Source of the DNA: Escherichia coli
Lineage (GTDB): Bacteria > Pseudomonadota > Gammaproteobacteria > Enterobacterales > Enterobacteriaceae
Length of the DNA: 64,000 nucleotides
NCBI RefSeq assembly: GCF_003991155.1
Contig: NZ_CP031293.1
Strand: one strand, 5' to 3'
Shown here: positions 17,342 to 35,214 of the stretch, piece after piece
How positions within the stretch are numbered: the stretch's first letter is position 1
Layout: every line of letters begins with the position of its first letter
The notes under the pieces: model-generated
Databases searched by the model: none
The model's input: the letters and a program-made list of their open reading frames with translations, nothing else
Told to the model about the DNA's origin: nothing
Made by a program: the position numbers and the translations under genes

Positions 17342-17441
17342 ATCGTGAGAACGAGGCGAATATTAGCGACGCTCATCCACAATGTCAAAGCCTGTTTTTT
17401 AAATTTGAAATCGTTTGCTGAAATAATCTGCACTTTGTCGT

Positions 17442-19088
17442 TTATTCCGACACAACTGGCTTTTTTTCACACTTTTGCGGCTCAGGTCGAGGATATTTCC
17501 ACAGCCAACGTCCAGTAACCATTCGCCAGTAAAACAGCACGGCCCGCACAGCCCAGTCGGCAAACATTCCCATCCAGACACCAACTACACCCCAGCCAAG
17601 CATGATTCCCAGCACATAACCGACTACAACCCGGCAACCCCACATGCTCAACATAGAAACCCACATGGCGTAACGTGCATCGCGAGCACCCTTAAATCCA
17701 GCGGGTAGCACCCATGAGGCAGACCAAATAGGCATAAATAAAGCATTTAGCCAAATCAGAATCACAACGACATGTTTAACCTGTGGATCCTGGGTGTAAA
17801 ACGATGCCATAACCCCGGCAAAGGGAGCCGTTAGCCAGGCGATGGCCGTTAATCCAAGAGTGGACAGCCAGAACACATGCCGCAACTGAATCTCTGCTTG
17901 CGCTATCTGCCCTACCCCCAACCTTCGGCCTGTAATGATCGTAGAAGCAGAGCCGAGCGCACTTCCGGGTAAGTTGATAAGAGCCGCAATTGAAAACGCG
18001 ATAAAATTTCCGGCAATAACACTGGTCCCCATCCCGGCAACGAACATTTGGGTTAATAACCGACCACTGGTAAATAACACTGATTCGACACTCGCTGGAA
18101 TACCAATCCCCATGACTTCCCAGATAATGCTAAAATTCAGCGGGTTAAAATAGCTCTTTAACGAAATTCTTAGCGCAGGATTAAAACCAATCGCCAGCAC
18201 CCACAAAATTGCAACTGCGCCAATATAACGAGAAATGGTTAAACCCAACCCAGCCCCGACAAATCCCAGTCCCGGCCAGGAGAAAAGGCCGTAAATCAAT
18301 ATGCCGCTAATAATAATATTAAGAATATTCAGGCTACCGTTAATCAGTAGCGGTATTTTCGTATTCCCTGCACCACGAAGTGCCCCGCTACCAATCAAAG
18401 TGATGGCAGCTGCTGGATAACTGAGTACCGTCAGCTCCAGATAAGTCAACGCCAGTGCTTTAACTTCTGTCGTGGCATCACCCGCGACGAAATCAATAAT
18501 TTGTTCGCCAAAATGATGAATAAGCGTTGCCAACAGTACGGCAAACAACGTCATGATCACCAATGACTGCCGCGTCGCCACCCTCGCTCGTCGTCGATCC
18601 CGCTTACCGAGACAAAATGCCACAACGACAGTAGTACCAAGATCGATAGCAGCAAAAAAAGCCATAATGACCATATTGAAGCTGTCCGCCAATCCCACGC
18701 CGGCCATCGCATCTTTTCCCAGCCAGCTGACCAGAAAAGTGCTCAGGACCCCCATCAACAGGACACAGGCATTCTCCATGAAGATAGGAACAGCAAGCGG
18801 GGTTATCTCGCGCCAGAACAACACTTTGTAGCTCTTGCGTTTAGCGTGCCAGCGAGTGCCGTGAACAACCTGGCGTAAAGCAGAGGAGATATTCAAAGCC
18901 GACCTTAATTGCAGAAAGTGAAACCACATTTCAAATAATGAGGGAGAATCAGCAAAGCTGCAAAGATTTTCGCCAACAAATTGTCTGCAAATGCAACAAA
19001 CTGTTGATAGAAACGGCAAACGGTTGGGAAATTTAAAAATCGGGTTTGACAAAAGATTTTTCGCCGTTAAGATGTGCCTCAACAGCAA
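17442..19088 (-). CDS. yeeO: MATE-family efflux transporter YeeO
   Basis: 548-aa polytopic membrane protein in the yeeO position between two tRNA-Asn genes; N-terminal ~60 codons are not membrane-like, so the true start may be internal. Confidence 0.75.
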   Translation of the reverse strand: MLLRHILTAKNLLSNPIFKFPNRLPFLSTVCCICRQFVGENLCSFADSPSLFEMWFHFLQLRSALNISSALRQVVHGTRWHAKRKSYKVLFWREITPLAVPIFMENACVLLMGVLSTFLVSWLGKDAMAGVGLADSFNMVIMAFFAAIDLGTTVVVAFCLGKRDRRRARVATRQSLVIMTLFAVLLATLIHHFGEQIIDFVAGDATTEVKALALTYLELTVLSYPAAAITLIGSGALRGAGNTKIPLLINGSLNILNIIISGILIYGLFSWPGLGFVGAGLGLTISRYIGAVAILWVLAIGFNPALRISLKSYFNPLNFSIIWEVMGIGIPASVESVLFTSGRLLTQMFVAGMGTSVIAGNFIAFSIAALINLPGSALGSASTIITGRRLGVGQIAQAEIQLRHVFWLSTLGLTAIAWLTAPFAGVMASFYTQDPQVKHVVVILIWLNALFMPIWSASWVLPAGFKGARDARYAMWVSMLSMWGCRVVVGYVLGIMLGWGVVGVWMGMFADWAVRAVLFYWRMVTGRWLWKYPRPEPQKCEKKPVVSE

Positions 19089-19089
19089 T

Positions 19090-19165
19090 TCCTCTGTAGT
19101 TCAGTCGGTAGAACGGCGGACTGTTAATCCGTATGTCACTGGTTCGAGTCCAGTCAGAGGAGCCA
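19090..19165 (+). tRNA. tRNA-Asn (GUU)
   Basis: Sequence identical to the minus-strand copy at 17266-17341, ends in CCA. Confidence 0.95.
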
Positions 19166-19169
19166 AATT

Positions 19170-19203
19170 CAAAAAAGCCTGCTTTCAAGCAGGCTTTTTG
19201 CTT
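19170..19203 (+). terminator. intrinsic terminator after tRNA-Asn
   Basis: AAAAGCCTGCTTTCAAGCAGGCTTTTTGCTTTC stem-loop plus T-run. Confidence 0.6.
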
Positions 19204-19220
19204 TCTAATTACCAACGCTC

Positions 19221-20156
19221 TTAAAACATCTGTCTTGAACCAGAACTAATTTGCACAGGCATTCCCGATCGACGTTGCAACGCAGCATTTGCGCGATTTA
19301 CATCAACTTCTTGCCCGTTGATAAACGCCCGCAAAGATGGGGTTACCGGCAATGGTACTTTTCGGTCAGACTCATATTCTGCACGATTGCGCGACAGCGG
19401 CTCATGAACTTCCAGCCACTTTGAACCATCCGGTTCCGTTGTGTATTTCACTGGCTGATCAATAATTTGTACACGAGTGCCTACAGGAACATTATCAAAC
19501 AGATATTTGATATCGTCATTGCGCAGACGAATACAGCCCTGACTTACCCGGAGCCCAATACCAAAATTGGCATTGGTACCGTGGATGGCATATAGCCTGC
19601 CAATATAAATCGCATACAGCCCCATGGGATTATCAGGCCCCGCAGGAACAAATGCGGGCAAACTCTCCCCTCGTTTCGCATATTCGCGCCGAGTGTTCGG
19701 CGTTGGCGTCCAGGTTGGAGCTTCTTGTTTACGTTCAACGGTAGTCACCCAGTTACGCGGGGTTTCTCGCCCAGCCTGGCCGATACCAATAGGAAAGACT
19801 TCCACAGTATTACTGTCTGGTGGGTAGTAATAAAGACGCATCTCAGCGACGTTAACCACAATCCCTTTACGAACAGTGGCGGGCAAAATCAGTTGCTGCG
19901 GAATGGTGAGTTGCGAACCTGACTTCGGCAAGAAAACATCAGCGCCCGGATTCGCTTCCAGCATGTTACTTAACCCTTGCCCGTATTGTGCGGCAAAAGT
20001 CTCCAGCGGCTGGGTATTGTGATCAGGAACAGTTACAGTAAACGACTGCCCCACTAAACGGCTACCCTCTGGAGGTAATGGATAAGTTACCGCCAGGCTA
20101 GTATGGCTGGCAAAAAGCAGAGCAAATGAGCAAAGAATATTTACACGACGCATCAT
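19221..20156 (-). CDS. ldtA: L,D-transpeptidase LdtA (ErfK)
   Basis: 311 aa with signal peptide; YkuD-type domain motifs ([19 protein letters not shown]); position upstream of cobT as in E. coli. Confidence 0.8.
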
Positions 20157-20217
20157 GTCCCTTTCCTATGTCGCGAAAGCTATCCATTAAGTATAGCTTT
20201 TATCAGACTTTTCGTTT

Positions 20218-21297
20218 TTAACTGTTCAAATCAGAAGTCGTATTCCCCGGTAGAACAATATTACTGGCAGCAAGTTCGCCCATGTTGTTGTATATCGCAC
20301 AAGCAGCTTCGATGATGGGCATCGCCAGAGCTGCGCCACTCCCCTCACCTAAACGCATCTCCATATTGAGATAAGGCTCCAGCCCCAAATGCGACAGCGC
20401 TATACGCGCCCCTTTTTCTGCCGACAGGTGAGAAGGAATGAGATACGGTTTGATTGCAGGAGACATCTGGCAGGCTGCGAGCGCAGCAGCATAAGAAAGA
20501 AATCCATCCAGCAACACGGGTAAACCGCAGGAAGCAGCGCCTAACATCACGCCAGCCATTCCGACCAAATCAAATCCACCCACTTTTGCCAGAACATTAA
20601 CGCCATCCTGCGGATTTGGCTGATTCAACGTAATCGCCCGGCGCACAACATCAATTTTATTAGCCAGTTTATCTGTCGGCAGGTTTGCGCCAATCCCAAC
20701 CACTTCTTCAGGATCCCGGCCAGTGATTGTGCTGACTATTGCTGCTGCCGGTGTCGTGTTTGCCATCCCCAGTTCACCTACACCAAACAGCGTGACACCG
20801 TTTTTTGCCAGCTCCCGCGTATAACATATGACGTCCAAAAGCAACTTTTCAGCCTGACGGCGACTCATTGCCGGAGCTGAAGCAATATTGCCGCTACCTC
20901 GTGCGACACGCATGTTGATAAGCCCGGGGATAGGCTCAGCAGTATCAATACCAACATCAATTACGTGGACGTTAGCGCCCGCTTGTGCTGCCAGCACACA
21001 CACGCCGGTTGTTCCGCGGGTCATATTTTCAGCCTGAATGGCTGTGACTTCTTTTGGGGAAATAGCGACCCCTTCCTCCCAGACGCCGTGATCGGCACAC
21101 ATAACCAGTACCGCTTTTTTGCCCACATGCGGTATGCCATTCAACCCCGGCATTCCCGCCAGTTGTACGCCAAGCGCCTCCAGCCTTCCCAGGCTACCAA
21201 CAGGTTTGAGTAACCCGTCAATATGCCGTTGTGCACGCGACATAGCGGCAGGATCGATGGCAGGGATCGTATTCAGTAAATTGGCAAGTGTTTGCAT
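20218..21297 (-). CDS. cobT: nicotinate-nucleotide--dimethylbenzimidazole phosphoribosyltransferase CobT
   Basis: 359 aa; N-terminus [19 protein letters not shown]... and gene order cobU-cobS-cobT. Confidence 0.85.
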
Positions 21298-21308
21298 GTC
21301 ACGTCTCT

Positions 21309-22052
21309 TTATAGCAGTGCCAGCAGGAAGACCAGTTCACCAAGCTCTATGGCTGCTCCCAGCGTATCGCCGGTTTGCCCGCCCAGCGTACGTTTGAGAA
21401 GCTGACCGAGGATGAAAATCGCCACCATCGTCACCACCATAGCAGCCACACCATGCATACCCGGCAATAATACGGCAGCAAAAATAGCGGCTAAGCCGAG
21501 TGTGACGCAGGTTTGTCGCCCATCAATTTTGCCAATGAACACATTGCCAAGCCCTTCTTCCCGCGCATAACGATGACGATACATCAATAATGCGGCAGTC
21601 CCGCGGCTGACCGCACATGCTGCCGCCAGCGATGCAAGGATCGGTTCGCCACGCAGAGCCAACTCGCTTAACACCAGAATCTTTGCCAGTACCACAAAAA
21701 TCAATGCCAGACCGCCGTGGGTGCCTAAACGGCTATCACGCATGATTTCCAACATGCGATCGCGGCTACGTGCAGAAAATACGCCATCACAGGTATCAGC
21801 GAGGCCGTCCAGGTGGAATCCCCCGGTCATCAGCGCCAGCATAAGTACGCTAAACAGTGCCGCCAGTGGTACGTCACACCATGCCTGCAGCACCATGAAG
21901 ACCAGCCCGCTAATCGCGCCAAGCAATAATCCAATCAAAGGAAAAGTAATAATACCGCGAGAATAATGCTCGAAATCCAGTCCCTGGGACCAGCGACGCG
22001 GTACAGGCAGACGCGTAATAAATGAGAGCATCGCCCAAAATAATTTACTCAT
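21309..22052 (-). CDS. cobS: adenosylcobinamide-GDP ribazoletransferase (cobalamin synthase) CobS
   Basis: Polytopic membrane protein; likely start [18 protein letters not shown]; between cobU and cobT. Confidence 0.85.
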
Positions 22053-22594
22053 TTGATTTTTACTCCAATACACGAAACCACCAGCCATACTTCATTTGCC
22101 GCAGCGGCCAACTGCTGGTTTACCCGCCCGGCAATATCACGAAAATGTCGTGCCAGACGACTCTCCGGCACAATCCCCATTCCCACTTCGTTAGTCACTA
22201 ATACAACCTTTGCGGGGCAACGTTGGCAGGCAGCAATCAACGACTGAATCTCAGCATTAATCGCCTGTTCCATCGCCTGATAATCCCATTCATCAGGGTC
22301 TTTATCGCCGCCATAATCAAACAACAGATTAGTCACCATTGTGGTAACGCATTCCAGCAACACAGCCTCATTCGGGTTAATGTCTGCATGAATTAATTCA
22401 TCAAGATGTTGCCAGCGCTCCACTGTGCGCCAGTGCGCCGGGCGGCCTTTCCGATGATGTTCTATCCGTGCAGCCATCTCATCATCAAGGATTTGCGAGG
22501 TGGCGATATACAGAACCTGTGAAGAGTCCCCAATAAGCGCTTCTGCGTGGCGACTCTTCCCGCTCCGTGCTCCACCTGTCACCAAAATCATCAT
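22049..22594 (-). CDS. cobU: adenosylcobinamide kinase / adenosylcobinamide-phosphate guanylyltransferase CobU
   Basis: 181 aa; P-loop [18 protein letters not shown]. Confidence 0.85.
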
Positions 22595-22727
22595 ACCGAC
22601 TCCTGATTCAATTGTATGATGGTATTCATTGAACAGAACAATGGATCCCCCACCGTTGCTGACCGCAAAACATTTACGCGATTAATACTGCGCGTAATAT
22701 AATTAAAAATCCAGCATTCTCAATCCA

Positions 22728-23234
22728 TTACGAAAGAAGATGGCATTGCGGAATAGCCAGACTTCCTCGTGTTAACGTCCGACAAAATGCGTCATTGACA
22801 GCGGTTTCTCTGGCATGACAGATTTCATTCAGATAATGGATTAATGCTACAGCCCCACCAGCCGGACCAGTCAGCAAACGGGCATTGTGTTCTGTAATCA
22901 AAATTACCGTCGTTCCCTCAGAATGAGCGAGCCATTCTGGTACGGATATCTCGCTTTCAGCTGCTATCAATAGCAGCACTGAATAATCGCTATACGCATC
23001 TGATAACGATTGCACAGGCCCACCGTCAAAAGGCTGGAAATCTTGCTGCCAGTCCTCACCAACCAAACAGGTTATTGGCAATATTTCCGCCAGATGTTTC
23101 GCCAGATCCACATCTCCAGATAAGAGGCAAAAAAGAGCTATCGATTCGGGTTTTATCGTTTTCATGCCCCTCGCCCTCCACTTAATTTCCTGTAATGGCG
23201 GTCTGGTTGATAAGCCATGAAACAAGATTGCCAC
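22728..23234 (-). CDS. hypothetical protein upstream of cobU (possible cbi-region remnant)
   Basis: 168-aa ORF between pocR and cobU, where Salmonella carries the cbi operon; no motif recognised. Confidence 0.3.
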   Translation of the reverse strand: MAILFHGLSTRPPLQEIKWRARGMKTIKPESIALFCLLSGDVDLAKHLAEILPITCLVGEDWQQDFQPFDGGPVQSLSDAYSDYSVLLLIAAESEISVPEWLAHSEGTTVILITEHNARLLTGPAGGAVALIHYLNEICHARETAVNDAFCRTLTRGSLAIPQCHLLS

Positions 23235-23649
23235 ACCTTAAGTGCAGCCCTGGTGCCTGTCGGCACTGCGATGAAAGAACTAAATGATGCCGCCATACCC
23301 TGATCCTTTCAGGGTGGTAGGGGTATAAAGACGCGCCTGTACTCTACCGGACGCTTCCGGGCAACCCACTTCCCACCGAAGTTGTTGGTATTGACTGACT
23401 GGCTGGTCTTCTGGCTTAGCGTCATCCTCTCCCGACCTTCCCAATCTCGCGATCAGTGGCATTTTCGGGTTTGTCAGCATTACAGCAGCGGGGGCTGCGA
23501 GGGATTTTCACCCTCTTCCCAGGCACAAATGTGCCACACCTGTCAGCGTATGTTATGAGCTGATTTCACTTTTCCCATAACAGGGAAATAACGTTAATTA
23601 TTCATTCCAGAGTTTATTTAAACCGTCCTCTTTTTTTGGGGCATTTACT

Positions 23650-24564
23650 CTATACCGTTTCCATCGCCGCATTATCACTCACTTGCTGTCGATACACCTG
23701 CGGCGTAACCTGATAAGTCTGACGGAAAACTTTGCAAAAATAACTTGTTTGCGAAAAACCTAAATTACGCGCAATGCTGGCGATGCTCCAGTCACTATGG
23801 CACAGTAACTCACGAGCGCTGGCCATCCGTTGTTGGTTTACCCACGCATTAAACCCGATTCCATGGTATTTCTTAAATAACTTACTGAAATAATAAGGGC
23901 TTAGATAAACGTGCGAGGCGACATCTTCCAGACGCAAATCGTCTGATAAATGCGCATCAATATAACGTAAAGCTTTTTTCATTTTATTGTCGTGGGGACC
24001 AGGCGCACGAGTCTGGCGCAACGAATCTGACTGAGATTTGTTCTCTTTAATAACCACAAAATTGAGTTGTTTTTTTAGGCAATTTTCTACAATCAACTTC
24101 AACAAATCCGCAGAGGCCATAACTCTTGAGTAATCCATCTCAGGGACTTTGCGAAATTCATTAAGTAATTCGGGATCTGCCTGCCAGCAATCATCGACAT
24201 TCAGAATATCGACCAAATCGACATCATCATTACGCAGACGAACTTGCCCGCACAATACAAAACCAACTAAATGTCCGGCGATTACCAGTGGAATAGAGAA
24301 ATCGGTTAATCCGGCATGACAGCGATAAATACAAGGCTGATCGGATTTAGAGGCTTCCAGCCCCCCACAACGATCGCTCATGCGACATCGAGTGCTCATC
24401 TGAGGGTGTTGCCGCATCATCTGACAAAATGGAGTGAAGTTAAACAGCTCGGAAATTTCATCGCCGTGAATATTGACCACGACAACCGCAAGGCTGGTCG
24501 CCTGCGCAAAATCCTGCGCGATTTTATTAATGAGTTCTGAATTAAGTGTCGCCGCAGAAATCAT
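23650..24564 (-). CDS. pocR: AraC-family regulator PocR (propanediol / cobalamin regulon activator)
   Basis: N-terminal sensory region plus C-terminal AraC HTH (YFSKLFKK...SIASIARNLGFSQTSYFCKVFRQ); divergent from the pdu operon, adjacent to pduF. Confidence 0.85.
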   Translation of the reverse strand: MISAATLNSELINKIAQDFAQATSLAVVVVNIHGDEISELFNFTPFCQMMRQHPQMSTRCRMSDRCGGLEASKSDQPCIYRCHAGLTDFSIPLVIAGHLVGFVLCGQVRLRNDDVDLVDILNVDDCWQADPELLNEFRKVPEMDYSRVMASADLLKLIVENCLKKQLNFVVIKENKSQSDSLRQTRAPGPHDNKMKKALRYIDAHLSDDLRLEDVASHVYLSPYYFSKLFKKYHGIGFNAWVNQQRMASARELLCHSDWSIASIARNLGFSQTSYFCKVFRQTYQVTPQVYRQQVSDNAAMETV

Positions 24565-24766
24565 GATAAAACCTCCCAGTTAATTTATTGTTATAGCAAA
24601 ACAATTGTTTTACATTTAATCTTCACATCATCCTTGATGATTTACTGACGAGAAGCACAAAGGACAATAACAAAAGCCTCCGTGAAGCGGGAGACTTTTT
24701 AATAAGTTCGGAAAGCAGATCACAAACAGTAAAAAAATAAACGTTTATAACTGCCAGATTATTTCA

Positions 24767-25576
24767 TTATTCGCTGATTTCTTTAGGCGTTACACTATTG
24801 ACAGGTAAATTCTTTGCAATGAGATAGCGATAAATCGCCGCACCAACACATGCCCCAATGATCGGTGCAATAATGGGTACAATGAAATAAGGAATATTGC
24901 GTCCACCAGTCATCGCAATTTCCCCCCAACCCGCAAACCAGGTGAAAATTTTAGGTCCAAAATCACGCGCTGGATTCATGGCAAAACCGGTTAATGGTCC
25001 GGTAGAAGCACCAATAACAGCAACCAGAATACCAATAAGTAAAGGCGCAAGCGGTCCTTTGGGTACGCCATTACCGTCATCGGTCAACGCCATAATCAAC
25101 CCCATTAACATGGACGTTATGACCACTTCGACCAACGCAGCTTGCCATACATTAATCGCCGCTGCTGGATAAGTACTGAAGATACTGGCGAGTTGTAAAC
25201 TTTCTGCGCTACCACGCACTATATTGTGAGCAGATTCAAAATCGATAAACAAACTGCTGTAGAGAGAATATGCCAGAACCGCACCACCAAAGGCACCCGC
25301 TAATTGCGCCACACAAAATGGCAGCACTTTACGGGCTGGGAAAGAGGCAAACAGCCACAGAGCAATGGTAACTGCCGGGTTGAGATGAGCGCCGGAAATA
25401 CCTGCCGTAAGGTAAACAGCAAGCGAAATCCCTAACCCCCATATGATACAAATTTCCCACAGTCCCAGACTTGCCCCGGCAACTTTCAGGGCGCACAAAC
25501 AACCAATGCCAAAAAAGAGGAACAGTCCGGTGCCCAAAAACTCGGCAACGCATTGCGCCTTGAGTGAATCATTCAT
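24767..25576 (-). CDS. pduF: propanediol diffusion facilitator PduF (MIP/aquaporin family)
   Basis: NPA motif (HLNPAVT), multi-pass membrane; likely start MNDSLKAQC... at 25576. Confidence 0.85.
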   Translation of the reverse strand: MNDSLKAQCVAEFLGTGLFLFFGIGCLCALKVAGASLGLWEICIIWGLGISLAVYLTAGISGAHLNPAVTIALWLFASFPARKVLPFCVAQLAGAFGGAVLAYSLYSSLFIDFESAHNIVRGSAESLQLASIFSTYPAAAINVWQAALVEVVITSMLMGLIMALTDDGNGVPKGPLAPLLIGILVAVIGASTGPLTGFAMNPARDFGPKIFTWFAGWGEIAMTGGRNIPYFIVPIIAPIIGACVGAAIYRYLIAKNLPVNSVTPKEISE

Positions 25577-26009
25577 AGTGACACCTTCTTTACGGAGTTT
25601 TTCTTTATCAGCCAACTATGCGCTGATTGTTGTGTATACCGAGCGCAACTATAAAAAATTGCTCTGCAGAAAATATTGCCAACATGCATGACAGACTCGT
25701 GTAAAAATCGTGCTAACATAACAAATTATTGTCATTGCCGAATCATGCAACACAGCTTTAATCAGTGTTGAAGTAATAATTTCCACCAAACTTTTACAAT
25801 AAAAAATTGCCATCATGACATAATAAAATTGAAACAAATATCACAGTTCCTTCCTCGAACCAAACTCAACGAAATATTATTCGCGATTAAACTCACTAGC
25901 CAACGCAATTAATTCACATTGAAACATCCACAAAACAACCAATAAATTAACAACATATAGTTCATAAAAGCAATTTTATTATATTTGTTCTCTAGGTAAT
26001 GACTCCAAC

Positions 26010-26513
26010 TTATTGATAGTGTTTTATGTTCAGATAATGCCCGATGACTTTGTCATGCAGCTCCACCGATTTTGAAAACGACAGCGACTTCCGTCCCAGC
26101 CGTGCCAGGTGCTGCCTCAGATTCAGGTTATGCCGCTCAATTCGCTGCGTATATCGCTTGCTGATTACGTGCAGCTTTCCCTTCAGGCGGGATTCATACA
26201 GCGGCCAGCCATCCGTCATCCATATCACCACGTCAAAGGGTGACAGCAGGCTCATAAGACGCCCCAGCGTCGCCATAGTGCGTTCACCGAATACGTGCGC
26301 AACAACCGTCTTCCGGAGCCTGTCATACGCGTAAAACAGCCAGCGCTGGCGCGATTTAGCCCCGACGTATCCCCACTGTTCGTCCATTTCCGCGCAGACG
26401 ATGACGTCACTGCCCGGCTGTATGCGCGAGGTTACCGACTGCGGCCTGAGTTTTTTAAATGGCGGAAAATCGTGTTGAGGCCAACGCCCATAATGCGGGC
26501 GGTTGCCCGGCAT
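26010..26513 (-). CDS. insB: IS1 InsB (transposase catalytic part; InsAB' by -1 frameshift at the A6C motif)
   Basis: 167 aa InsB sequence; TTTAAAAAAC motif present on the coding strand. Confidence 0.9.
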
Positions 26514-26707
26514 CCAACGCCATTCATGGCCATATCAATGATTTTCTGGTGCGTACCGGGTTGAGAAGCGGTGTAAGTGAACTGCAGTTGCCATGTTTTA
26601 CGGCAATGAGAGCAGAGATAGCGCTGATGTCCGGCGGTGCTTTTGCCGTTACGCACCACTCCGTCAGTAGCTGAACAGGAGGGACAGCTGATAGAAACAG
26701 AAGCCAC
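26432..26707 (-). CDS. insA: IS1 InsA
   Basis: [43 protein letters not shown]...; 91 aa. Confidence 0.9.
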
Positions 26708-26863
26708 TGGAGCACCTCAAAAACACCATCATACACTAAATCAGTAAGTTGGCAGCATCACCTGTTCTCTATTAATTTTTCTCATTAGCCGAGTAAGTCA
26801 GCCATTCTTTTTCCTCGCTTTTTTTTATAGTCATATCGTCAAAAAAATCCAGGCGAGGTCTTT

Positions 26864-27148
26864 ATGCAACAAGAAGCGTTAGGAATGGTAGAAACCAAAG
26901 GCTTAACTGCCGCCATAGAGGCCGCAGATGCCATGGTGAAGTCGGCAAATGTTTTGCTGGTCGGCTACGAAAAAATAGGTTCCGGGCTGGTGACCGTCAT
27001 CGTTCGTGGTGATGTCGGGGCGGTAAAAGCGGCAACAGACGCGGGTGCCGCAGCTGCGCGTAACGTCGGCGAAGTAAAAGCCGTACACGTTATTCCCCGC
27101 CCACATACCGATGTCGAAAAAATCTTACCAAAGGGAATTAACCCATGA
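26864..27148 (+). CDS. pduA: BMC shell protein PduA
   Basis: 94-aa BMC-domain protein ([24 protein letters not shown]), first gene of the operon. Confidence 0.9.
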
Positions 27149-27957
27149 GCAGCAATGAACTGGTCGAACAGATCATGGCGCAGGTCATCGCTCGCGTAGC
27201 GACGCCAGAGCATGAGGTTCTCCCGAAAACCACTCATCAAATACGAGAGACGGCTATGGCAGAAAAAAGCTGCACGTTAACAGAATTTGTTGGCACCGCT
27301 ATTGGCGACACTGTAGGTCTGGTCATTGCGAACGTTGATAGCGCCCTGTTGGACGCGATGAAACTTGAAAAACGCTATCGTTCCATTGGCATTCTGGGGG
27401 CGCGTATTGGCGCAGGGCCACACATTATGGCCGCTGATGAAGCGGTAAAAGCCACCAACACTGAAGTTATTAGCATTGAACTTCCTCGCGATACTAAAGG
27501 CGGTGCCGGACACGGCTCATTGATCCTCTTAGGTGGCAACGATGTTTCCGACGTGAAACGCGGTATTGAAGTTGCCCTGAAAGAACTCGATCGGACCTTT
27601 GGTGATGTCTATGCCAACGAAGCCGGGCATCTTGAACTGCAATACACCGCCCGCGCCAGCTATGCACTGGAAAAAGCGTTTGGCGCTCCACTGGGACGGG
27701 CTTGCGGCGTTATTGTCGGCGCTCCGGCTGCGGTGGGTGTTCTGATGGCCGACACCGCGCTGAAGTCCGCCAATGTGGATGTCGTGGCATACAGCTCCCC
27801 CGCTCAAGGCACCAGCTACAGCAACGAAGTCATTCTGATTATCTCGGGTGACTCCGGCGCAGTCCGCCAGGCGGTCATCTCCGCACGCGCAATCGGTAAA
27901 ACCGTGCTTTCGACTCTCGGCGATACACCGAAAAACGATCGCCCTTCCTACATCTGA
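27145..27957 (+). CDS. pduB: BMC shell protein PduB (tandem BMC domain)
   Basis: 270 aa, position and length as PduB. Confidence 0.85.
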
Positions 27958-27975
27958 ATTCTCTGAGGCAGATTT

Positions 27976-29640
27976 ATGAGATCGAAAAGATTTGAAGCAC
28001 TGGCAAAACGCCCGGTCAACCAGGACGGTTTCGTTAAAGAGTGGATTGAAGAAGGCTTCATTGCGATGGAAAGCCCGAACGATCCTAAACCGTCAATCAA
28101 AATTGTTAACGGCGTCGTTACCGAACTGGATGGAAAACCCGCCAGTCAGTTTGACCTGATCGACCACTTTATCGCCCGCTACGGCATCAATCTCGCGCGC
28201 GCAGAAGAAGTCATCGCGATGGATTCGGTAAAACTTGCCAATATGTTGTGCGATCCAAATGTCAAACGTAGCGATATCGTTCCCCTTACCACAGCAATGA
28301 CGCCTGCAAAAATCGTCGAAGTGGTTTCGCAGATGAACGTGGTAGAGATGATGATGGCGATGCAGAAAATGCGCGCCCGTCGAACACCATCACAACAGGC
28401 TCACGTCACCAACATCAAAGATAACCCGGTACAAATTGCCGCCGACGCAGCTGAAGGCGCATGGCGCGGGTTTGATGAACAGGAAACCACTGTTGCCGTT
28501 GCTCGCTATGCACCGTTCAACGCCATCGCCCTGCTGGTCGGCTCACAGGTGGGACGTCCGGGCGTCTTGACCCAGTGTTCACTGGAAGAAGCCACCGAAC
28601 TGAAACTCGGTATGTTAGGCCACACCTGTTACGCCGAAACAATTTCTGTCTATGGTACAGAACCTGTTTTCACCGATGGCGATGATACCCCGTGGTCAAA
28701 AGGATTTCTCGCGTCATCCTATGCTTCTCGCGGCTTAAAAATGCGCTTTACTTCCGGCTCCGGCTCTGAAGTACAGATGGGTTACGCGGAAGGCAAATCA
28801 ATGCTTTATCTCGAGGCTCGATGCATTTACATCACCAAAGCCGCAGGCGTTCAGGGTCTGCAGAATGGTTCGGTAAGCTGCATCGGTGTTCCATCAGCTG
28901 TGCCATCAGGCATCCGCGCAGTATTAGCGGAAAACTTAATTTGCTCATCGCTGGATCTGGAATGCGCCTCCAGTAATGACCAGACCTTTACCCACTCGGA
29001 TATGCGCCGTACCGCACGTTTCCTGATGCAATTTCTGCCGGGTACCGACTTTATCTCGTCCGGTTTTTCCGCTGTGCCGAACTACGACAACATGTTTGCT
29101 GGTTCAAACGAAGATGCTGAAGACTTCGATGATTACAACGTCATTCAGCGTGACCTGAAGGTTGATGGCGGGCTGCGACCAGTACGCGAAGAAGATGTTA
29201 TCGCAATCCGCAATAAAGCCGCTCGCGCTTTACAGGCTGTCTTTGCCGGTATGGGACTACCGCCAATTACCGATGAAGAAGTCGAAGCGGCAACCTATGC
29301 CCACGGTTCGAAAGATATGCCTGAGCGCAATATTGTGGAAGACATCAAGTTCGCCCAGGAGATTATCAATAAAAACCGTAACAGCCTGGAAGTGGTGAAA
29401 GCCCTGGCGCAAGGCGGTTTTACCGATGTCGCCCAGGACATGCTCAACATGCAAAAAGCAAAACTGACCGGCGATTATCTCCATACCTCAGCCATCATCG
29501 TCGATGACGGACAAGTGCTCTCAGCGGTCAATGACATCAATGATTACGCCGGACCAGCTACAGGTTACCGCCTGCAAGGGGAACGCTGGGAAGAGATCAA
29601 AAATATTCCCGGTGCACTTGATCCCAACGAAATTGACTAA
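27976..29640 (+). CDS. pduC: B12-dependent diol dehydratase large subunit PduC
   Basis: 554 aa; start MRSKRFEALAKRPVNQDGFVKEWIEEG. Confidence 0.9.
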   Translation: MRSKRFEALAKRPVNQDGFVKEWIEEGFIAMESPNDPKPSIKIVNGVVTELDGKPASQFDLIDHFIARYGINLARAEEVIAMDSVKLANMLCDPNVKRSDIVPLTTAMTPAKIVEVVSQMNVVEMMMAMQKMRARRTPSQQAHVTNIKDNPVQIAADAAEGAWRGFDEQETTVAVARYAPFNAIALLVGSQVGRPGVLTQCSLEEATELKLGMLGHTCYAETISVYGTEPVFTDGDDTPWSKGFLASSYASRGLKMRFTSGSGSEVQMGYAEGKSMLYLEARCIYITKAAGVQGLQNGSVSCIGVPSAVPSGIRAVLAENLICSSLDLECASSNDQTFTHSDMRRTARFLMQFLPGTDFISSGFSAVPNYDNMFAGSNEDAEDFDDYNVIQRDLKVDGGLRPVREEDVIAIRNKAARALQAVFAGMGLPPITDEEVEAATYAHGSKDMPERNIVEDIKFAQEIINKNRNSLEVVKALAQGGFTDVAQDMLNMQKAKLTGDYLHTSAIIVDDGQVLSAVNDINDYAGPATGYRLQGERWEEIKNIPGALDPNEID

Positions 29641-29649
29641 GGGTGAGAA

Positions 29650-30318
29650 ATGGAAATTAACGAAAAATTACTGCGTCAGATTATCGAAGGCGTGCTGGCA
29701 GAAATGCAAACCAGCGACAAGTCCGTTTCATTTCGTGCACCTGTCTCTGCAACTGTCTCTTCAGTGCCAGATACCGGAAATTTTCTGACCGAAATTGGCG
29801 AAGCCCAACAAGGCACTCAGCAAGATGAAGTCATTATTGCTGTAGGCCCGGCGTTCGGCCTGGCGCAAACCGTCAATATCATCGGTATTCCGCATAAAAA
29901 CATTTTGCGCGAAGTGATTGCCGGTATCGAAGAAGAAGGCATTAAAGCCCGTGTGATTCGCTGCTTTAAATCGTCCGATGTCGCATTCGTAGCAGTCGAA
30001 GGCGATCGTCTTAGTGGTTCAGGTATTGCTATCGGTATTCAGTCGAAAGGCACAACGGTTATCCACCAGCAGGGACTTCCCCCCTTGTCTAACCTGGAAC
30101 TTTTCCCACAAGCGCCTTTGTTGACGCTGGATACTTATCGTCAGATTGGCAAAAACGCCGCGCGTTATGCGAAGCGCGAGTCTCCACAACCGGTGCCGAC
30201 CCTCAACGATCAAATGGCGCGACCGAAATACCAGGCCAAATCTGCCATTTTGCATATTAAAGAGACGAAGTACGTGGTCACTGGCAAAAAACCGCAAGAA
30301 CTGCGCGTGACGTTTTAA
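29650..30318 (+). CDS. pduD: diol dehydratase medium subunit PduD
   Basis: 222 aa following pduC. Confidence 0.85.
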
Positions 30319-30332
30319 CAAAGGAAACCTTC

Positions 30333-30851
30333 ATGAATACCGATGCAATTGAGTCGATGGTCAGGGACGTGTTGAACCGCATGAACAGTTTACAGGGTGC
30401 AGCTCCTGTTTCTGCGGTCCCCAGCGCGTCAATACAGAGCGCCAAAGTGACGGATTACCCGCTGGCAAATAAACATCCGGAATGGGTTAAAACAGCAACC
30501 AATAAAACGCTCGACGATTTCACTCTGGAAAATGTGCTCAGCGATAACGTCACCGCCCAGGATATGCGCATTACCCCTGAAACATTGCGTATTCAGGCCG
30601 CGATTGCCAGAGATGCTGGTCGCGATCGCCTGGCGATGAATTTCGAACGCGCCGCTGAGCTTACCTCAGTACCGGATGATCGCATCCTCGAAATCTACAA
30701 TGCGTTACGCCCTTATCGTTCGACTAAGCAAGAACTTATTGCCATTGCTGACGATCTTGAACGGCGTTATCAGGCCAAAATTTGTGCTGCATTTGTCCGT
30801 GAAGCTGCGGAACTTTATGTCGAGCGCAAAAAACTGAAAGGCGACGATTAA
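30333..30851 (+). CDS. pduE: diol dehydratase small subunit PduE
   Basis: 172 aa following pduD. Confidence 0.85.
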   Translation: MNTDAIESMVRDVLNRMNSLQGAAPVSAVPSASIQSAKVTDYPLANKHPEWVKTATNKTLDDFTLENVLSDNVTAQDMRITPETLRIQAAIARDAGRDRLAMNFERAAELTSVPDDRILEIYNALRPYRSTKQELIAIADDLERRYQAKICAAFVREAAELYVERKKLKGDD

Positions 30852-30887
30852 GGACGAACTATGCGATATGACGATTAAGGACGAACT

Positions 30888-32720
30888 ATGCGATATATAG
30901 CAGGCATTGATATCGGCAACTCATCAACAGAGGTTGCGCTGGCAACGCTCAGTGCAACTGGAGAGTTGTCGTTCGTGAGTAGCGCCCTGGCGGAAACCAC
31001 CGGAATTAAAGGTACGTTGCGTAACGTCCATGGTATTCAGGAGGCGCTCGCACAGGCAACGAAAAAAGTCGGCATCAATGTTAGCGATATTTCGCTTATT
31101 CGTATCAACGAAGCAACTCCGGTCATTGGTGATGTGGCGATGGAAACCATCACTGAAACTATCATCACCGAATCAACCATGATCGGTCACAACCCGAAAA
31201 CGCCGGGCGGAGTGGGGCTGGGCGTAGGGCTCACCATCACTCCGCAAGAGTTATTAACATGCCCGGCGGACACACCCTACATTCTGGTGGTGTCATCGGC
31301 ATTTGATTTTGCCGATATCGCAACAATGATAAACGCCTCCGTACGCGCCGGATATCAGCTGACTGGCGTTATTCTGCAACGCGACGATGGCGTACTGGTC
31401 AATAACCGCCTGGAAATTCCTCTCCCTATTGTTGATGAAGTCCTCTACATCGATCGTATTCCGCTCGGCATGCTGGCTGCGATTGAAGTTGCCGTTCCCG
31501 GGAAAGTTATCGAAACCCTGTCTAACCCGTATGGGATTGCCACCGTTTTCGCCCTCAATGCTGAAGAGACTAAAAATATTGTTCCTGTCGCGCGGGCGCT
31601 AATCGGCAACCGTTCAGCAGTGGTAGTGAAAACGCCTTCTGGCGACGTTAAAGCCCGTTCGATACCCGCCGGAAATATCGAACTGCTTTCTGCCGGGCGC
31701 ACAACGCGGGTTGATGTAGCTGCTGGTGCCGATGCCATTATGAAAGCGGTCGGTGAGTGCCCAAAACTGGAAAACGTGACGGGAGAACCTGGCTCCAACA
31801 TCGGCGGAATGCTGGAACATGTTCGCCAGACCATGGCTGAACTGACCAACAAACCCAGCCACGAAATTTTTATTCAGGATTTGCTGGCGATAGATACCTC
31901 TGTCCCCGTCAACGTAACCGGTGGTCTGGCAGGTGAATTTTCACTGGAACAGGCTGTGGGTATTGCCTCTATGGTGAAATCCGACCGTCTGCAAATGGCG
32001 ATGATCGCCAGTGAAATTAAGCAAAAACTGCATGTTGATGTTCAGGTCGGAGGCGCAGAAGCAGAAGCCGCCATTCAAGGGGCCTTGACTACCCCTGGAA
32101 CCACACGTCCACTGGCAATTCTGGACTTAGGTGCAGGCTCTACCGATGCCTCCATCATCAATCAGAAAGGGGAAATTGTTGCCACTCACCTTGCGGGTGC
32201 GGGCGACATGGTAACGATGATTATCGTTCGTGAGCTGGGCTTAAATGATCGTTATCTGGCAGAAGAAATCAAAAAGTACCCGTTGGCAAAAGTAGAAAGC
32301 CTGTTCCACTTACGCCATGAAGATGGCAGCGTTCAGTTCTTCCCTACTCCCCTATCCCCCTATGTATTTGCCCGCGTCTGTGTAGTGAAACCCGACGAAC
32401 TGGTGCCTATTCCCGGTGATTTGACGCTGGAAAAAGTACGCGCTGTTCGTCGCAGTGCGAAAGAGCGTGTCTTCGTAACCAATGCCCTGCGCGCGCTACG
32501 TCAGGTAAGCCCTGCCGGAAATATTCGCGACATTCCGTTCGTCGTTCTGGTGGGCGGTTCTTCGCTGGATTTCGAAGTACCACAGTTAGTCACCGATGCA
32601 TTGGCGCATTATCGACTGGTCGCCGGACGGGGGAATATCCGTGGTAGCGAAGGTCCGCGCAACGCGGTAGCTACTGGGCTACTCATCGCCTGGCACAAGG
32701 AGTCGATTCATGGAAAGTAA
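30888..32720 (+). CDS. pduG: diol dehydratase reactivase large subunit PduG
   Basis: 610 aa, MRYIAGIDIGNSSTEVALA (ASKHA-like N-terminus); preceded by a 27-bp tandem duplication of its ribosome-binding site and start. Confidence 0.85.
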   Translation: MRYIAGIDIGNSSTEVALATLSATGELSFVSSALAETTGIKGTLRNVHGIQEALAQATKKVGINVSDISLIRINEATPVIGDVAMETITETIITESTMIGHNPKTPGGVGLGVGLTITPQELLTCPADTPYILVVSSAFDFADIATMINASVRAGYQLTGVILQRDDGVLVNNRLEIPLPIVDEVLYIDRIPLGMLAAIEVAVPGKVIETLSNPYGIATVFALNAEETKNIVPVARALIGNRSAVVVKTPSGDVKARSIPAGNIELLSAGRTTRVDVAAGADAIMKAVGECPKLENVTGEPGSNIGGMLEHVRQTMAELTNKPSHEIFIQDLLAIDTSVPVNVTGGLAGEFSLEQAVGIASMVKSDRLQMAMIASEIKQKLHVDVQVGGAEAEAAIQGALTTPGTTRPLAILDLGAGSTDASIINQKGEIVATHLAGAGDMVTMIIVRELGLNDRYLAEEIKKYPLAKVESLFHLRHEDGSVQFFPTPLSPYVFARVCVVKPDELVPIPGDLTLEKVRAVRRSAKERVFVTNALRALRQVSPAGNIRDIPFVVLVGGSSLDFEVPQLVTDALAHYRLVAGRGNIRGSEGPRNAVATGLLIAWHKESIHGK

Positions 32721-33060
32721 AGAGCGTGCACCAGCCATCGTCGTCATGGAGATCGGTAACTGCATCACTATATGGGATGAGGTGCTTCTTGGCATTGAAG
32801 AGGAAGGTATTCCCTTTCGCATTCAACACATTCCGTCAGGTGAAGTTATCGATAGCGCCTGGCTGGCTGCTCGTCAATCTCCCCTGTTGGTTGGCATTGC
32901 CTGCGATCAGGAAAAACTGATTGTGCATTACAAAAACTTACCACCATCAGCGCCACTGTTTACGCTGATGTATCAACAAGATAACCATGCCCGGCGCAGC
33001 ATCGGCACTAACGCTGCCCGCCTGGTAAAAGGAATTCCCTTCCGGGAATTCCACTCATAA
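32710..33060 (+). CDS. pduH: diol dehydratase reactivase small subunit PduH
   Basis: 116 aa, overlaps pduG end. Confidence 0.8.
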
Positions 33061-33079
33061 TCCACAGGAGAAACGCAGT

Positions 33080-33355
33080 ATGAACAACGCACTAGGACTG
33101 GTTGAAACAAAAGGGTTAGTTGGCGCAATTGAAGCTGCAGATGCCATGGTTAAATCCGCCAACGTGCAGCTGGTTGGCTATGAAAAGATTGGTTCGGGTC
33201 TGATTACGGTGATGGTCCGCGGTGATGTTGGTGCAGTAAAGGCCGCCGTGGATGCGGGGAGCGCTGCGGCAAGCGCAGTTGGCGAAGTGAAATCCTGCCA
33301 TGTCATCCCGCGCCCACACAGTGATGTTGAGGCTATTTTACCTAAATCGGCATAA
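33080..33355 (+). CDS. pduJ: BMC shell protein PduJ
   Basis: 91-aa BMC-domain protein, near-paralog of PduA. Confidence 0.9.
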
Positions 33356-33378
33356 CCCCATTTGCTAAGGAGCACAGC

Positions 33379-33801
33379 GTGAAGCAATCACTGGGATTAC
33401 TTGAAGTCAGTGGTCTGGCACTCGCCATCAGTTGCGCAGATGCTATGGCAAAAGCCGCGTCCATCACGCTGGTTGGCCTTGAGAAGACCAATGGCTCAGG
33501 CTGGACGCTCATCAAAATCACCGGTGACGTCGCCTCGGTTAATGCGGCGATCGCGACGGGAGCCAGTTTCGCCGGACAGCGAAATGGCCTCGTCGCACAC
33601 AAAGTGATTGCCCGTCCGGGAGACGGCATTCTGCCCCACACAACTAAAGCATTGACTGTGACGGTTGAAACAAGCGAAACACCAGCAACAACCGTCATCT
33701 CAGAGATTATCAGTTGTAATTTGTGTCTTGACCCGGCATGTCAGCGGCAAAAAGGTGAGCCCCGCTCACTTTGCCTGCACGCCAATAAGCGAGGGGAGTA
33801 A
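33379..33801 (+). CDS. pduK: BMC shell protein PduK
   Basis: BMC domain plus C-terminal Cys-rich tail (CNLCLDPACQRQ). Confidence 0.8.
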   Translation: MKQSLGLLEVSGLALAISCADAMAKAASITLVGLEKTNGSGWTLIKITGDVASVNAAIATGASFAGQRNGLVAHKVIARPGDGILPHTTKALTVTVETSETPATTVISEIISCNLCLDPACQRQKGEPRSLCLHANKRGE

Positions 33802-33803
33802 CA

Positions 33804-34436
33804 GTGGATAAACAAACCTTGCAGGAAACAGTGAGCCAGATTCTGGATGAGATGCGCGAGCGCCCTATCCCTCTGGGTGTTTCCAGTCGTCATATTCATC
33901 TTTCAACAGCGGATTATTTGCGTCTTTTTCCTGAACAACCGATTAGCGAGAAAAAGCCGTTAATGCAACCTGGCCAATTCGCTGCTGAACAGGTTGTTAC
34001 GCTGGAGGGACCAAAAGGTAAATTGCACAACGTTCGCTTGTTGGGGCCGCTACGCAATGCAAGCCAGGTGGAAATTTCCCGGACGGACGCCAGAACGTTA
34101 GGGATCACCGCCCCGCTACGCATGTCAGGCGATCTCAGCGGCACTCCAGGGATTCGTTTGGTAAGCCCATTTGCGGAACTGGAGATCACATCTGGCGTCA
34201 TTGTCGCGCAACGGCATATTCATATGTCTCCGCTGGATGCCCTGATTTATGGCGTTACGCATGGCGATAAAGTGGCGGTTGCCATTGAAGGTGATGAGCG
34301 ACGACTGATATTCGAAAACGTCGCTGTTCGCGTCTCTCCGGATATGCGTCTTGAAATGCATATTGATACCGATGAAGCCAACGCCGCAGGGGCTGATAGC
34401 CCTGACGTTTTTGCCACACTGGTGTCAGTGCCATGA
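33804..34436 (+). CDS. pduL: phosphate propanoyltransferase PduL
   Basis: 210 aa in PduL position. Confidence 0.8.
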   Translation: MDKQTLQETVSQILDEMRERPIPLGVSSRHIHLSTADYLRLFPEQPISEKKPLMQPGQFAAEQVVTLEGPKGKLHNVRLLGPLRNASQVEISRTDARTLGITAPLRMSGDLSGTPGIRLVSPFAELEITSGVIVAQRHIHMSPLDALIYGVTHGDKVAVAIEGDERRLIFENVAVRVSPDMRLEMHIDTDEANAAGADSPDVFATLVSVP

Positions 34437-34924: not shown

Positions 34925-34927
34925 CCT

Positions 34928-35203
34928 ATGCATCTGGCTCGAGTCACTGGCGCGGTAGTATCCACGCAAAAATCACCTTCTCTGATCGGGAAAAAACTGC
35001 TGCTGGTTCGCCGGGTCAGTGCTGACGGCGAACTGCCTCTCACGCCATTAACCGGCGACGAAGTTGCCGTTGATTCCGTCGGCGCAGGCGTTGGTGAGTT
35101 GGTACTCCTCAGCAGTGGTTCCAGCGCCAGACATGTGTTTTCCGGCCCTAACGAGGCCATCGACCTGGCAGTGGTCGGCATTGTCGATACGCTTTCGCGC
35201 TAA
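34928..35203 (+). CDS. pduN: BMC vertex protein PduN (EutN/CcmL family)
   Basis: 91 aa, [15 protein letters not shown] EutN/CcmL-like N-terminus. Confidence 0.85.
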
Positions 35204-35214
35204 GGAGCTGAAAG

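What the first reader, a model, noticed from the sequence alone, without database searches (positions are those of the whole stretch)
25986..26864. IS1 with intact 9-bp target duplication inserted about 100 bp upstream of pduA in the pocR/pduF-pdu control region
An exact TGTTCTCTA duplication flanks a full-length IS1 between divergent pduF and pduA. Its right end is 101 bp from the pduA start codon, so it is likely to separate the operon from upstream promoter or activator sites, or to provide read-out transcription.
Basis: seen in the sequence. Interest (0 to 1): 0.45.

Follow-up and report, generated by a model that had tools for sequence, protein, structure and literature searches.

The report
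IS1 splits the pdu promoter region
One E. coli strain carries a recent IS1 insertion that leaves the propanediol-utilisation (pdu) promoter attached to its operon but moves the likely activator (PocR) binding site 777 bp away, which probably weakens induction; this is an ordinary kind of regulatory mutation.

Summary
A complete 768-bp IS1 lies at 25995-26762, flanked by an exact 9-bp duplication (TGTTCTCTA), 101 bp upstream of the pduA ATG. Removing IS1 and one repeat copy gives a sequence 100% identical to IS-free E. coli pdu loci. The 18.5 kb from the right-hand repeat copy through pduA-pduV to just past dacD has no mismatch to an IS-free strain. The same junction is absent from 5,426 complete E. 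coli genomes and from the metagenome contigs. The insertion is therefore recent and strain-specific.

Salmonella dRNA-seq start sites place the pdu core promoter (-10 TATAGT at 26826-26831, start about 26839) downstream of IS1. The insertion sits at about -77. It splits a module whose spacing is conserved from Escherichia to Vibrio. The upstream half (25968-25985) resembles the two PocR boxes of the cob promoter, and all four strong copies of the motif now lie on the pduF side.

Ppdu is almost silent without PocR, and a cob promoter cut at -73 loses function. I therefore expect strongly reduced propanediol induction of pdu (about 0.55).

The transposase genes point away from pduA, so read-out transcription is unlikely. 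Only a weak outward hybrid promoter is possible. This is a new instance of a known kind of event, of low to moderate interest.

The parts
25986..25994 (.). left copy of the 9-bp target-site duplication, TGTTCTCTA
   Evidence: a single copy is present in the IS-free reference
25995..26762 (-). complete IS1 (768 bp); the transposase genes read towards pduF
   Evidence: (100% identical to annotated IS1 copies)
25995..26017 (.). IRR, the terminal inverted repeat on the pduF side
26740..26762 (.). IRL, the terminal inverted repeat on the pduA side. It holds the inward insA promoter (CTGCCA-16-TATGAT, minus strand 26755..26728) and an outward -35-like TTGGCA at 26749-26754.
26432..26707 (-). insA (91 aa)
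26010..26513 (-). insB reading frame (167 aa); the A6C frameshift motif lies at IS1 position 305
26763..26771 (.). right copy of the target-site duplication; equals -76..-68 relative to the inferred Ppdu start
25968..25985 (+). PocR-box-like element ('block i', AAGCAATTTTATTATATT). It sat at -94..-77 of Ppdu before the insertion and is now 777 bp further away.
25903..25920 (+). second box-like element oriented towards pduA (12.5 bits)
25795..25812 (-). box-like element oriented towards pduF (14.2 bits)
25717..25734 (-). box-like, partly palindromic element (12.7 bits on the minus strand, 9.2 on the plus strand)
26799..26816 (+). nearly invariant -35-region block CAGCCATTCTTTTTCCTC ('block k', -40..-23), kept with pduA; a weak box match (5.2 bits)
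26826..26831 (+). Ppdu -10 hexamer, TATAGT
26839..26839 (+). inferred Ppdu transcription start (plus or minus 1), transferred from the S. Typhimurium SL1344 dRNA-seq start site
26864..27148 (+). [quoted passage not shown]
24767..25576 (-). pduF (propanediol facilitator), divergent from pduA
23650..24564 (-). pocR, an intact AraC-family activator (NCBIfam equivalog, 553 bits against a cut-off of 500)

Best explanation
A single, very recent IS1 transposition landed in the AT-rich DNA between the divergent pduF and pdu promoters. It sits about 77 bp upstream of the pdu transcription start. The core promoter (-35 region, -10 TATAGT, start, leader) stays attached to pduA. The insertion opens up a conserved promoter module and moves the strongest PocR-box-like site, and every other strong copy of that motif, to the far side of 777 bp of foreign DNA. 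Ppdu is an activator-dependent promoter. The most likely consequence is a large loss of PocR- and propanediol-dependent induction of the 21-gene pdu operon, while pduF-pocR keeps its boxes. Shown: the anatomy, the recency, the position relative to conserved elements, and the similarity of the displaced element to the cob PocR boxes. Inferred: the position of the start site in E. coli, that the displaced element binds PocR, and the effect on expression.
For: 1. Geometry. The S. Typhimurium SL1344 dRNA-seq primary start for pduA is 26 nt upstream of the ATG, behind ...GTCAGCCATTCTTTTTCCTCGCATCTTCTTATAGTCCCAACTA (PMC3963941, supplement file 13). The window matches this string from AAGTCAGCC to TATAGTC. 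That puts the -10 at 26826-26831, the start at about 26839, and the last IS1 base at -77.
2. Conserved module. In 46 of 60 sequences scanned (59 pdu loci from Escherichia to Yersinia, Aeromonas, Tolumonas and Vibrio, plus the window's rebuilt empty site), the CAATnnTTT block lies 52-54 bp upstream of the CCATT block. The CCATT block lies 24 bp upstream of the -10 in 57 of 60. By contrast, the distance from the CCATT block to the ATG varies from 60 to 158 bp. IS1 stretches the 54-bp spacing to 831 bp.
3. Identity of the displaced block. A weight matrix built only from that block scores 17.8 bits on the 16-bp palindrome TAGCAATATTTTGCTA and 12.5-13.1 bits on the TGACAATTTATTGTCA / TGACAATTTATTGTTA palindrome upstream of Salmonella cob. 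From the primers and box lengths in PMC11264322, these positions correspond to PocR binding boxes I and II.
4. Enrichment. Only 6 hits of at least 12 bits occur in the whole 64-kb window, and 4 of them lie in the 418 bp of intergenic DNA left of IS1. Right of IS1 the best hit is 5.2 bits, and IS1 itself has none of 6 bits or more. With the original 22-position form of the matrix, shuffled intergenic DNA gives 0.43 +/- 0.67 hits of at least 7 bits, against 6 observed.
5. Published function. Ppdu gives about 50 AU without PocR and about 3500 AU with it. A cob promoter truncated at -73 (box I removed) shows 'a significant loss of function', and both boxes are described as 'indispensable' (PMC11264322).
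6. Recency. The flanks have 0 mismatches over 18,533 bp and 2 mismatches over 16,231 bp to an IS-free strain. Identical IS1 copies occur in close relatives.
Against: No expression data exist for this allele. PocR binding at Ppdu has been shown only for a -618..+38 fragment (PMC10433801), so the site has not been mapped. The 76 bp kept with pduA include two conserved blocks (-70..-58 and -40..-23) that span about 48 bp. This resembles the promoter-proximal cob box II and could suffice for some activation. AraC-family proteins can act through DNA loops. The start site was transferred from Salmonella and not measured in E. coli. My placement of cob boxes I and II rests on primer positions and stated lengths, because the original footprint paper was not available. 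An outward -35 in the IS1 end could add some PocR-independent transcription.
Confidence: 0.55

Rival explanations
1. The insertion has little or no effect. PocR activates Ppdu through the promoter-proximal conserved DNA (-70..-23) that stays with pduA. The displaced block serves the divergent pduF promoter, so pdu remains inducible.
For: The target duplication preserves every base from -76 downstream. Blocks j and k are conserved and together span about 48 bp next to the -35, like cob box II. The displaced block lies at about -53..-70 of the Salmonella-mapped pduF start, a normal activator position. The operon shows no decay, although the insertion is too recent for that to be informative.
Against: The spacing from the displaced block to the Ppdu -35 block is fixed at 52-54 bp across distant genera, whereas the DNA beyond that block, on the pduF side, is not alignable. 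That ties the block to Ppdu. The retained DNA scores only 5.2 bits against the box matrix. Removing the distal box at cob caused significant loss of function.
Confidence: 0.22
2. The insertion is a gain of expression. The IS1 end supplies an outward -35 (TTGGCA, 26749-26754) that pairs with flanking AT-rich DNA (TAATTT, 26773-26778, 18-bp spacer). Alternatively, the insertion disrupts silencing of the AT-rich control region, as IS1 and IS5 do at bgl. Either route would give PocR-independent pdu transcription.
For: [quoted passage not shown] Reported outcomes differ by site: afaA up, osmB down, ugd unchanged (PMC8764528; the review PMC9330008). TTGGCA matches the consensus at 5 of 6 positions and lies 8 bp from the IS1 end. 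The intergenic region is 33% G+C and the target is 21% G+C.
Against: The best candidate -10 matches only 3 of 6 positions, and the consensus scan reports no plus-strand promoter at the junction. The transposase genes and their promoter face away from pduA. No evidence was obtained here that pdu is silenced by H-NS in E. coli.
Confidence: 0.13
3. The insertion is an assembly artefact: an IS1 copy was placed at this locus by mis-assembly of repeats.
For: IS1 is multicopy in E. coli, with a median of 11 places per genome. This junction was found in no other record.
Against: Both junctions are exact. A perfect 9-bp duplication of a sequence present once in IS-free relatives is the specific signature of IS1 transposition, and mis-joining would not create it.
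Confidence: 0.02

Closest known systems
IS1 (IS1 family insertion sequence; copies annotated 'IS1-like element IS1B family')
   Same: 768 bp, imperfect 23-bp terminal repeats, insA and insB with the A6C frameshift site, a 9-bp target duplication, an AT-rich target, and 100% identity to annotated copies.
   Different: Nothing about the element differs. Only the insertion site is new: it is absent from 5,426 complete E. coli genomes and from the metagenome contigs.
Salmonella pdu/cob control region (PocR-dependent promoters Ppdu, PpduF and Pcob)
   Same: The gene order pocR-pduF and divergent pduA is the same. The Ppdu -35 region and -10 are nearly identical. An upstream box resembles the cob PocR boxes. 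PocR is intact.
   Different: In this E. coli type of locus the cbi genes are missing: a riboswitch and a remnant ORF are followed by cobUST. The pduF-side half of the intergenic region has diverged from Salmonella. IS1 now separates the box from Ppdu.
Pcob2, the engineered cob promoter truncated at -73 (PMC11264322)
   Same: It is a PocR-dependent promoter that keeps about 75 bp upstream of the start and the proximal site, but lacks the distal high-scoring box. It showed significant loss of activation.
   Different: It is a different promoter. At cob the distal box is about 75 bp from the proximal one, whereas at Ppdu it is directly adjacent (-94..-77). In the window the box is displaced by 777 bp and not deleted.
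IS1 hybrid promoters and IS-mediated activation (afaA in ST131; blaTEM, acrEF; bgl)
   Same: An IS1 end with an outward -35-like hexamer lies next to AT-rich DNA upstream of an operon.
   Different: No well-spaced -10 is present (3 of 6 matches). IS1 lies in the orientation opposite to the afaA case (PMC8764528, describes that IS1 as being in the same orientation as the gene).

Membership tests
IS1 insertion sequence | Length of about 768 bp with imperfect terminal inverted repeats of about 23 bp | tested here: met
   768 bp; the repeats match at 18 of 23 positions
IS1 insertion sequence | insA and insB frames with the A6C -1 frameshift motif | tested here: met
   ORFs of 91 aa and 167 aa; NCBIfam transpos_IS1 covers profile positions 1-81 and 76-199; TTAAAAAAC lies at IS1 position 305
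IS1 insertion sequence | 9-bp direct duplication of the target | tested here: met
   TGTTCTCTA flanks both ends; a single copy is present in IS-free relatives
IS1 insertion sequence | Near-identity to known IS1 copies | tested here: met
   100% identity over 768 bp to many annotated copies
PocR-dependent pdu promoter (Ppdu) | Start site and -10 upstream of pduA that match the experimentally mapped Salmonella promoter | tested here: met
   The sequence from AAGTCAGCC to TATAGTC is conserved with the SL1344 promoter string; no E. coli start-site data were available
PocR-dependent pdu promoter (Ppdu) | An intact pocR activator gene in cis | tested here: met
   NF047788 TransRegPocR, 553 bits against a cut-off of 500
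PocR-dependent pdu promoter (Ppdu) | PocR binding site at its native spacing upstream of the -35 | tested here: not met
   The box-like block is 52-54 bp from the -35 block in 46 of 60 sequences. In the window it is 831 bp away. That this block binds PocR is inferred from its similarity to the cob boxes.
IS-generated hybrid promoter | Outward -35 hexamer in the IS end | tested here: met
   TTGGCA at 26749-26754, 8 bp from the IS1 end
IS-generated hybrid promoter | A -10 hexamer in the flank, 16-18 bp from that -35 | tested here: not met
   The best candidate, TAATTT, matches 3 of 6 positions with an 18-bp spacer; the consensus scan found no plus-strand site
IS relief of silencing (bgl type) | An operon silenced by H-NS or a similar factor, with silencing relieved by upstream IS insertion | not testable with these tools
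   Only the AT-richness of the region (33% G+C) could be measured

The most novel reading that the evidence does not exclude
The insertion is not simple damage. It rewires the regulon so that pduF-pocR keeps propanediol sensing and autoinduction, while the costly microcompartment operon is uncoupled from it. The operon would then be either shut off or run at a low constitutive level from an IS1-flank hybrid promoter. This would be a selected, potentially reversible IS-based switch in this lineage.
Probability: 0.08. Interest if true: 0.5.

Novelty: new member of a known kind. Interest (0 to 1): 0.28.

Why it matters
For this strain, the insertion predicts a phenotype that gene content alone would miss. 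The pdu operon is complete and mutation-free, yet probably poorly inducible, so the strain may not grow on 1,2-propanediol or build Pdu microcompartments. More generally, the allele is a natural promoter truncation at about -76. Comparing it with the empty site would test whether the conserved upstream box is needed for PocR activation of Ppdu, whose PocR site has not been mapped. It also shows why IS insertions in control regions should be scored when metabolic traits are predicted from genomes.

Tried and rejected
1. Several classic papers are not held in the library: the promoter-mapping papers (Chen 1994, PMC196736; Chen 1995, PMC177344), the PocR footprint paper (Rondon and Escalante-Semerena 1996, PMC177925) and Kroeger 2012 (PMC3356629). 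I used dRNA-seq supplement data and a 2024 biosensor paper in their place.
2. The first E. coli search, which included IS1, was swamped by IS1 copies. It was useful only as a negative result for the junction.
3. The biosensor paper says box II lies 9 bp from the -35. That fits only if its theoretical start is about 27-31 nt downstream of the dRNA-seq start at 2111978. dRNA-seq reports two cob starts 60 nt apart. I therefore anchored the boxes by primer positions and did not use the stated -35. This point remains a caveat.
4. I read an IHF-like WATCAANNNNTTR match upstream of Ppdu in some species. It coincides with the -35 of the Salmonella pduF promoter and is degenerate in E. coli, so I dropped it.
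5. I rejected read-out from the transposase promoter into pduA on grounds of orientation.
6. An exact-match scan of the metagenome contigs for the right junction found nothing.
7. A literature search for IS1 together with pdu in E. coli found nothing relevant.

Full report
**The observation**

The region 25995-26762 is a complete 768-bp IS1, and it is the only IS1 copy in the window. Its ends are the canonical imperfect inverted repeats. GGTAATGACTCCAACTTATTGAT is at the left end and the complement of GGTGATGCTGCCAACTTACTGAT is at the right end; they match at 18 of 23 positions.

insA (26707->26432, 91 aa) and the insB frame (26513->26010, 167 aa) are open on the minus strand. They match the NCBIfam IS1 transposase model over profile positions 1-81 and 76-199. 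The TTAAAAAAC frameshift motif is present. The element is 100% identical to IS1 copies annotated 'IS1-like element IS1B family' in many E. coli chromosomes and plasmids.

TGTTCTCTA occurs exactly twice in the 64-kb window, at 25986-25994 and 26763-26771, directly abutting the two IS1 ends. There are 101 bases between the right IS1 end and the pduA ATG at 26864.

**Proof of transposition and age of the event**

Deleting IS1 and one repeat copy gives a 1324-bp sequence that is 100% identical over its full length to many complete E. coli genomes. In those genomes it is annotated pduF | pduA | pduB. Of 5,426 genomes, 642 carry the locus.

Against the IS-free strain AR Bank #0349 (locus L001):
- Window 26763-45295 aligns with 0 mismatches over 18,533 bp.
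- Window 9764-25994 aligns with 2 mismatches over 16,231 bp.
- The 9 bp at L001 20687-20695 belong to both alignments, so the target was present once.

The left 19 kb of the window is also 100% identical to several IS-free strains. Two relatives whose pdu locus is 100% identical and IS-free, 2016C-3878 and CREC-544, carry identical IS1 copies elsewhere, and these are plausible donors.

No complete E. coli genome holds a place covering 80% or more of a query spanning IS1 plus both flanks. An exact scan of the metagenome contigs for the right junction found nothing. The insertion is therefore real, very recent and, as far as these collections show, private to the source strain. All pdu genes from pduA to pduV are identical to the reference, and pocR is an intact equivalog (553 bits against a cut-off of 500).

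**Position relative to the promoters**

The classic mapping papers were not available. I used the dRNA-seq start-site table for S. Typhimurium SL1344 (PMC3963941, supplement file 13).
- The pduA primary start is at 2114535, 26 nt upstream of the ATG. It follows AACAGCAAGTCAGCCATTCTTTTTCCTCGCATCTTCTTATAGTCCCAACTA.
- The pduF primary start is at 2114389 on the other strand, 146 bp away, with a 353-nt leader.

The window matches the pduA promoter string from AAGTCAGCC through TATAGTC. This gives:
- The -10 at 26826-26831.
- The start at about 26839, plus or minus 1.
- The last IS1 base at -77.
- The retained repeat copy at -76..-68.

The core promoter and leader therefore stay with pduA. What is cut off is everything upstream of -76. 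On the other side, the Salmonella-mapped pduF start corresponds to about 25915, which puts IS1 at about -80 of that promoter. This second mapping is less secure, because the E. coli sequence has diverged there.

**What lies on the far side**

I fetched 80 pdu loci from one genome per species and located pduF and pduA in 59 of them. The intergenic region is 509-531 bp long in nearly all Enterobacteriaceae. Most of it is poorly conserved apart from a few blocks.

Upstream of pduA, three elements are conserved as far out as Yersinia, Hafnia, Brenneria, Sodalis, Tolumonas, Aeromonas and Vibrio:
- The -10, TATAGT or TATATT.
- A nearly invariant CAGCCATTCTTTTT block over the -35 region.
- A CAATwTTTTryTAT block further upstream.

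I measured spacings in 60 sequences: the 59 loci plus the window's rebuilt empty site.
- The upstream block lies 52-54 bp from the -35 block in all 46 sequences where a simple pattern finds it.
- The -35 block lies 24 bp from the -10 in 57 of 60.
- The distance from the -35 block to the ATG ranges from 60 to 158 bp.

This is a spacing-constrained promoter module. IS1 sits between its two halves, and the target duplication begins one base after the 18-nt upstream block (25968-25985). The 54-bp spacing becomes 831 bp.

**What the displaced block is**

A weight matrix built only from that block across species recurs in the window's intergenic region. In its original 22-position form it gives six hits of at least 7 bits, against 0.43 +/- 0.67 in shuffles.

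For the later scans I trimmed the matrix to its first 18 positions. In the whole 64-kb window, on both strands, there are only six hits of at least 12 bits. Four of them lie in the 418 bp of intergenic DNA left of IS1: 25717-34, 25795-812, 25903-20 and 25968-85, the last being the best at 17.1 bits. Right of IS1, the best hit is 5.2 bits, on the -35 block. IS1 itself has no hit of 6 bits or more.

In Salmonella arizonae and diarizonae the same matrix gives its top score in the locus (17.8 bits) on the palindrome TAGCAATATTTTGCTA, about 120-135 bp upstream of the cob start. It gives 12.5-13.1 bits on the TGACAATTTATTGTCA / TGACAATTTATTGTTA palindrome at about -43..-60.

A 2024 study (PMC11264322) reports, citing the original footprints, that Pcob has two PocR boxes of 20 and 48 bp separated by 52 bp. 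It reports that both are indispensable, and that removing box I (construct Pcob2) causes significant loss of function.

The Pcob2 forward primer starts at -73 of the dRNA-seq start. The roughly 170-bp Pcob1 construct starts at the first palindrome. With the stated lengths, box I falls on the first palindrome and box II covers the second. The displaced Ppdu block is therefore PocR-box-like. This is an inference from sequence similarity to experimentally defined sites, not a binding measurement.

**Mechanism**

Ppdu is close to silent without PocR: about 50 AU against about 3500 AU with it (PMC11264322). PocR binds a -618..+38 pduA fragment (PMC10433801). A related PocR promoter that keeps only 73 bp upstream of its start loses function.

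The IS1 allele keeps 76 bp upstream of the start and has lost the adjacent high-scoring box and three more. I therefore expect a strong reduction of propanediol induction of pdu, with the pduF-pocR side largely unaffected (confidence about 0.55).

The main rival (0.22) is that the retained conserved DNA at -70..-23, which is about 48 bp long like cob box II, is sufficient for activation.

A gain-of-expression rival (0.13) rests on the outward -35-like TTGGCA in the IS1 end. IS1 is documented to form hybrid promoters, with site-dependent outcomes (PMC8764528; PMC9330008). Here the best -10 (TAATTT, 18-bp spacer) matches only 3 of 6 positions, and the consensus scan finds no plus-strand promoter.

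Read-out from the transposase promoter cannot reach pduA. insA and insB and their promoter (found on the minus strand at 26755..26728) face pduF.

**Comparison and novelty**

The element is an ordinary IS1, and insertion into an AT-rich control region (33% G+C, against 49% for the window) is typical behaviour. The insertion site is new. The fine-scale reading, a natural truncation that separates a conserved PocR-like box from the Ppdu core, is also new. The event is a new member of a known kind, and interest is low to moderate. Its value is as a predicted regulatory phenotype in a genome whose pdu genes look perfect, and as a ready-made test of the Ppdu upstream box.

Noticed in passing
window 45296-64000: Identity to the IS-free reference ends at 45295, about 48 nt into sbcB. 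Beyond that point lies a P22-like prophage on the minus strand (tailspike, antirepressor, Arc-family repressors and a long run of large ORFs). Other E. coli strains carry a similar prophage next to dacD.
   Followed up: partly
window 22728-23558: A cobalamin riboswitch (23384-23558, minus strand, 109 bits) is followed by a 168-aa ORF annotated as hypothetical, and then directly by cobU, cobS and cobT. The cbi genes for de novo B12 synthesis that follow pocR in Salmonella are absent from this E. coli type of pdu locus.
   Followed up: partly
window 24625-24708 (+): Rfam places the sRNA STnc230 (76 bits) in the spacer between pocR and pduF, on the strand opposite to both genes.
   Followed up: no
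window 25609-25629: The pduF leader holds a short inverted repeat (TCAGCC...GCTGA in E. coli, CCAGC...GCTGG in other genera). It is conserved across Enterobacteriaceae, with changes on both arms, and may form an RNA hairpin.
   Followed up: no
window about 25888/25889: The Escherichia lineage lacks 12 bp that other Enterobacteriaceae conserve in the pduF-pduA intergenic region (..ACAAAAATGTAA..). The pduF-side half of the region is much more diverged in Escherichia than the Ppdu core.
   Followed up: no
window 1-17341: A genomic island lies next to a tRNA (17269-17341; annotated tRNA-Asn in a reference strain identical over this region). It carries RHS-repeat proteins, an IS3-family element, an integrase pseudogene and a HigA antitoxin, plus four Rfam RNAs: isrC (9832-9954), isrK (11725-11803), C4 antisense RNA (11825-11912) and EFASI (13697-13825).
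   Followed up: partly
L002 (DXKH01000123.1): A metagenome-assembled genome labelled Citrobacter sp. carries a pdu locus whose PduA and PduB are 100% identical, and PduF 99% identical, to this E. coli window. It also carries a second, Citrobacter-like pdu locus (L030). The bin probably contains E. coli contigs.
   Followed up: no
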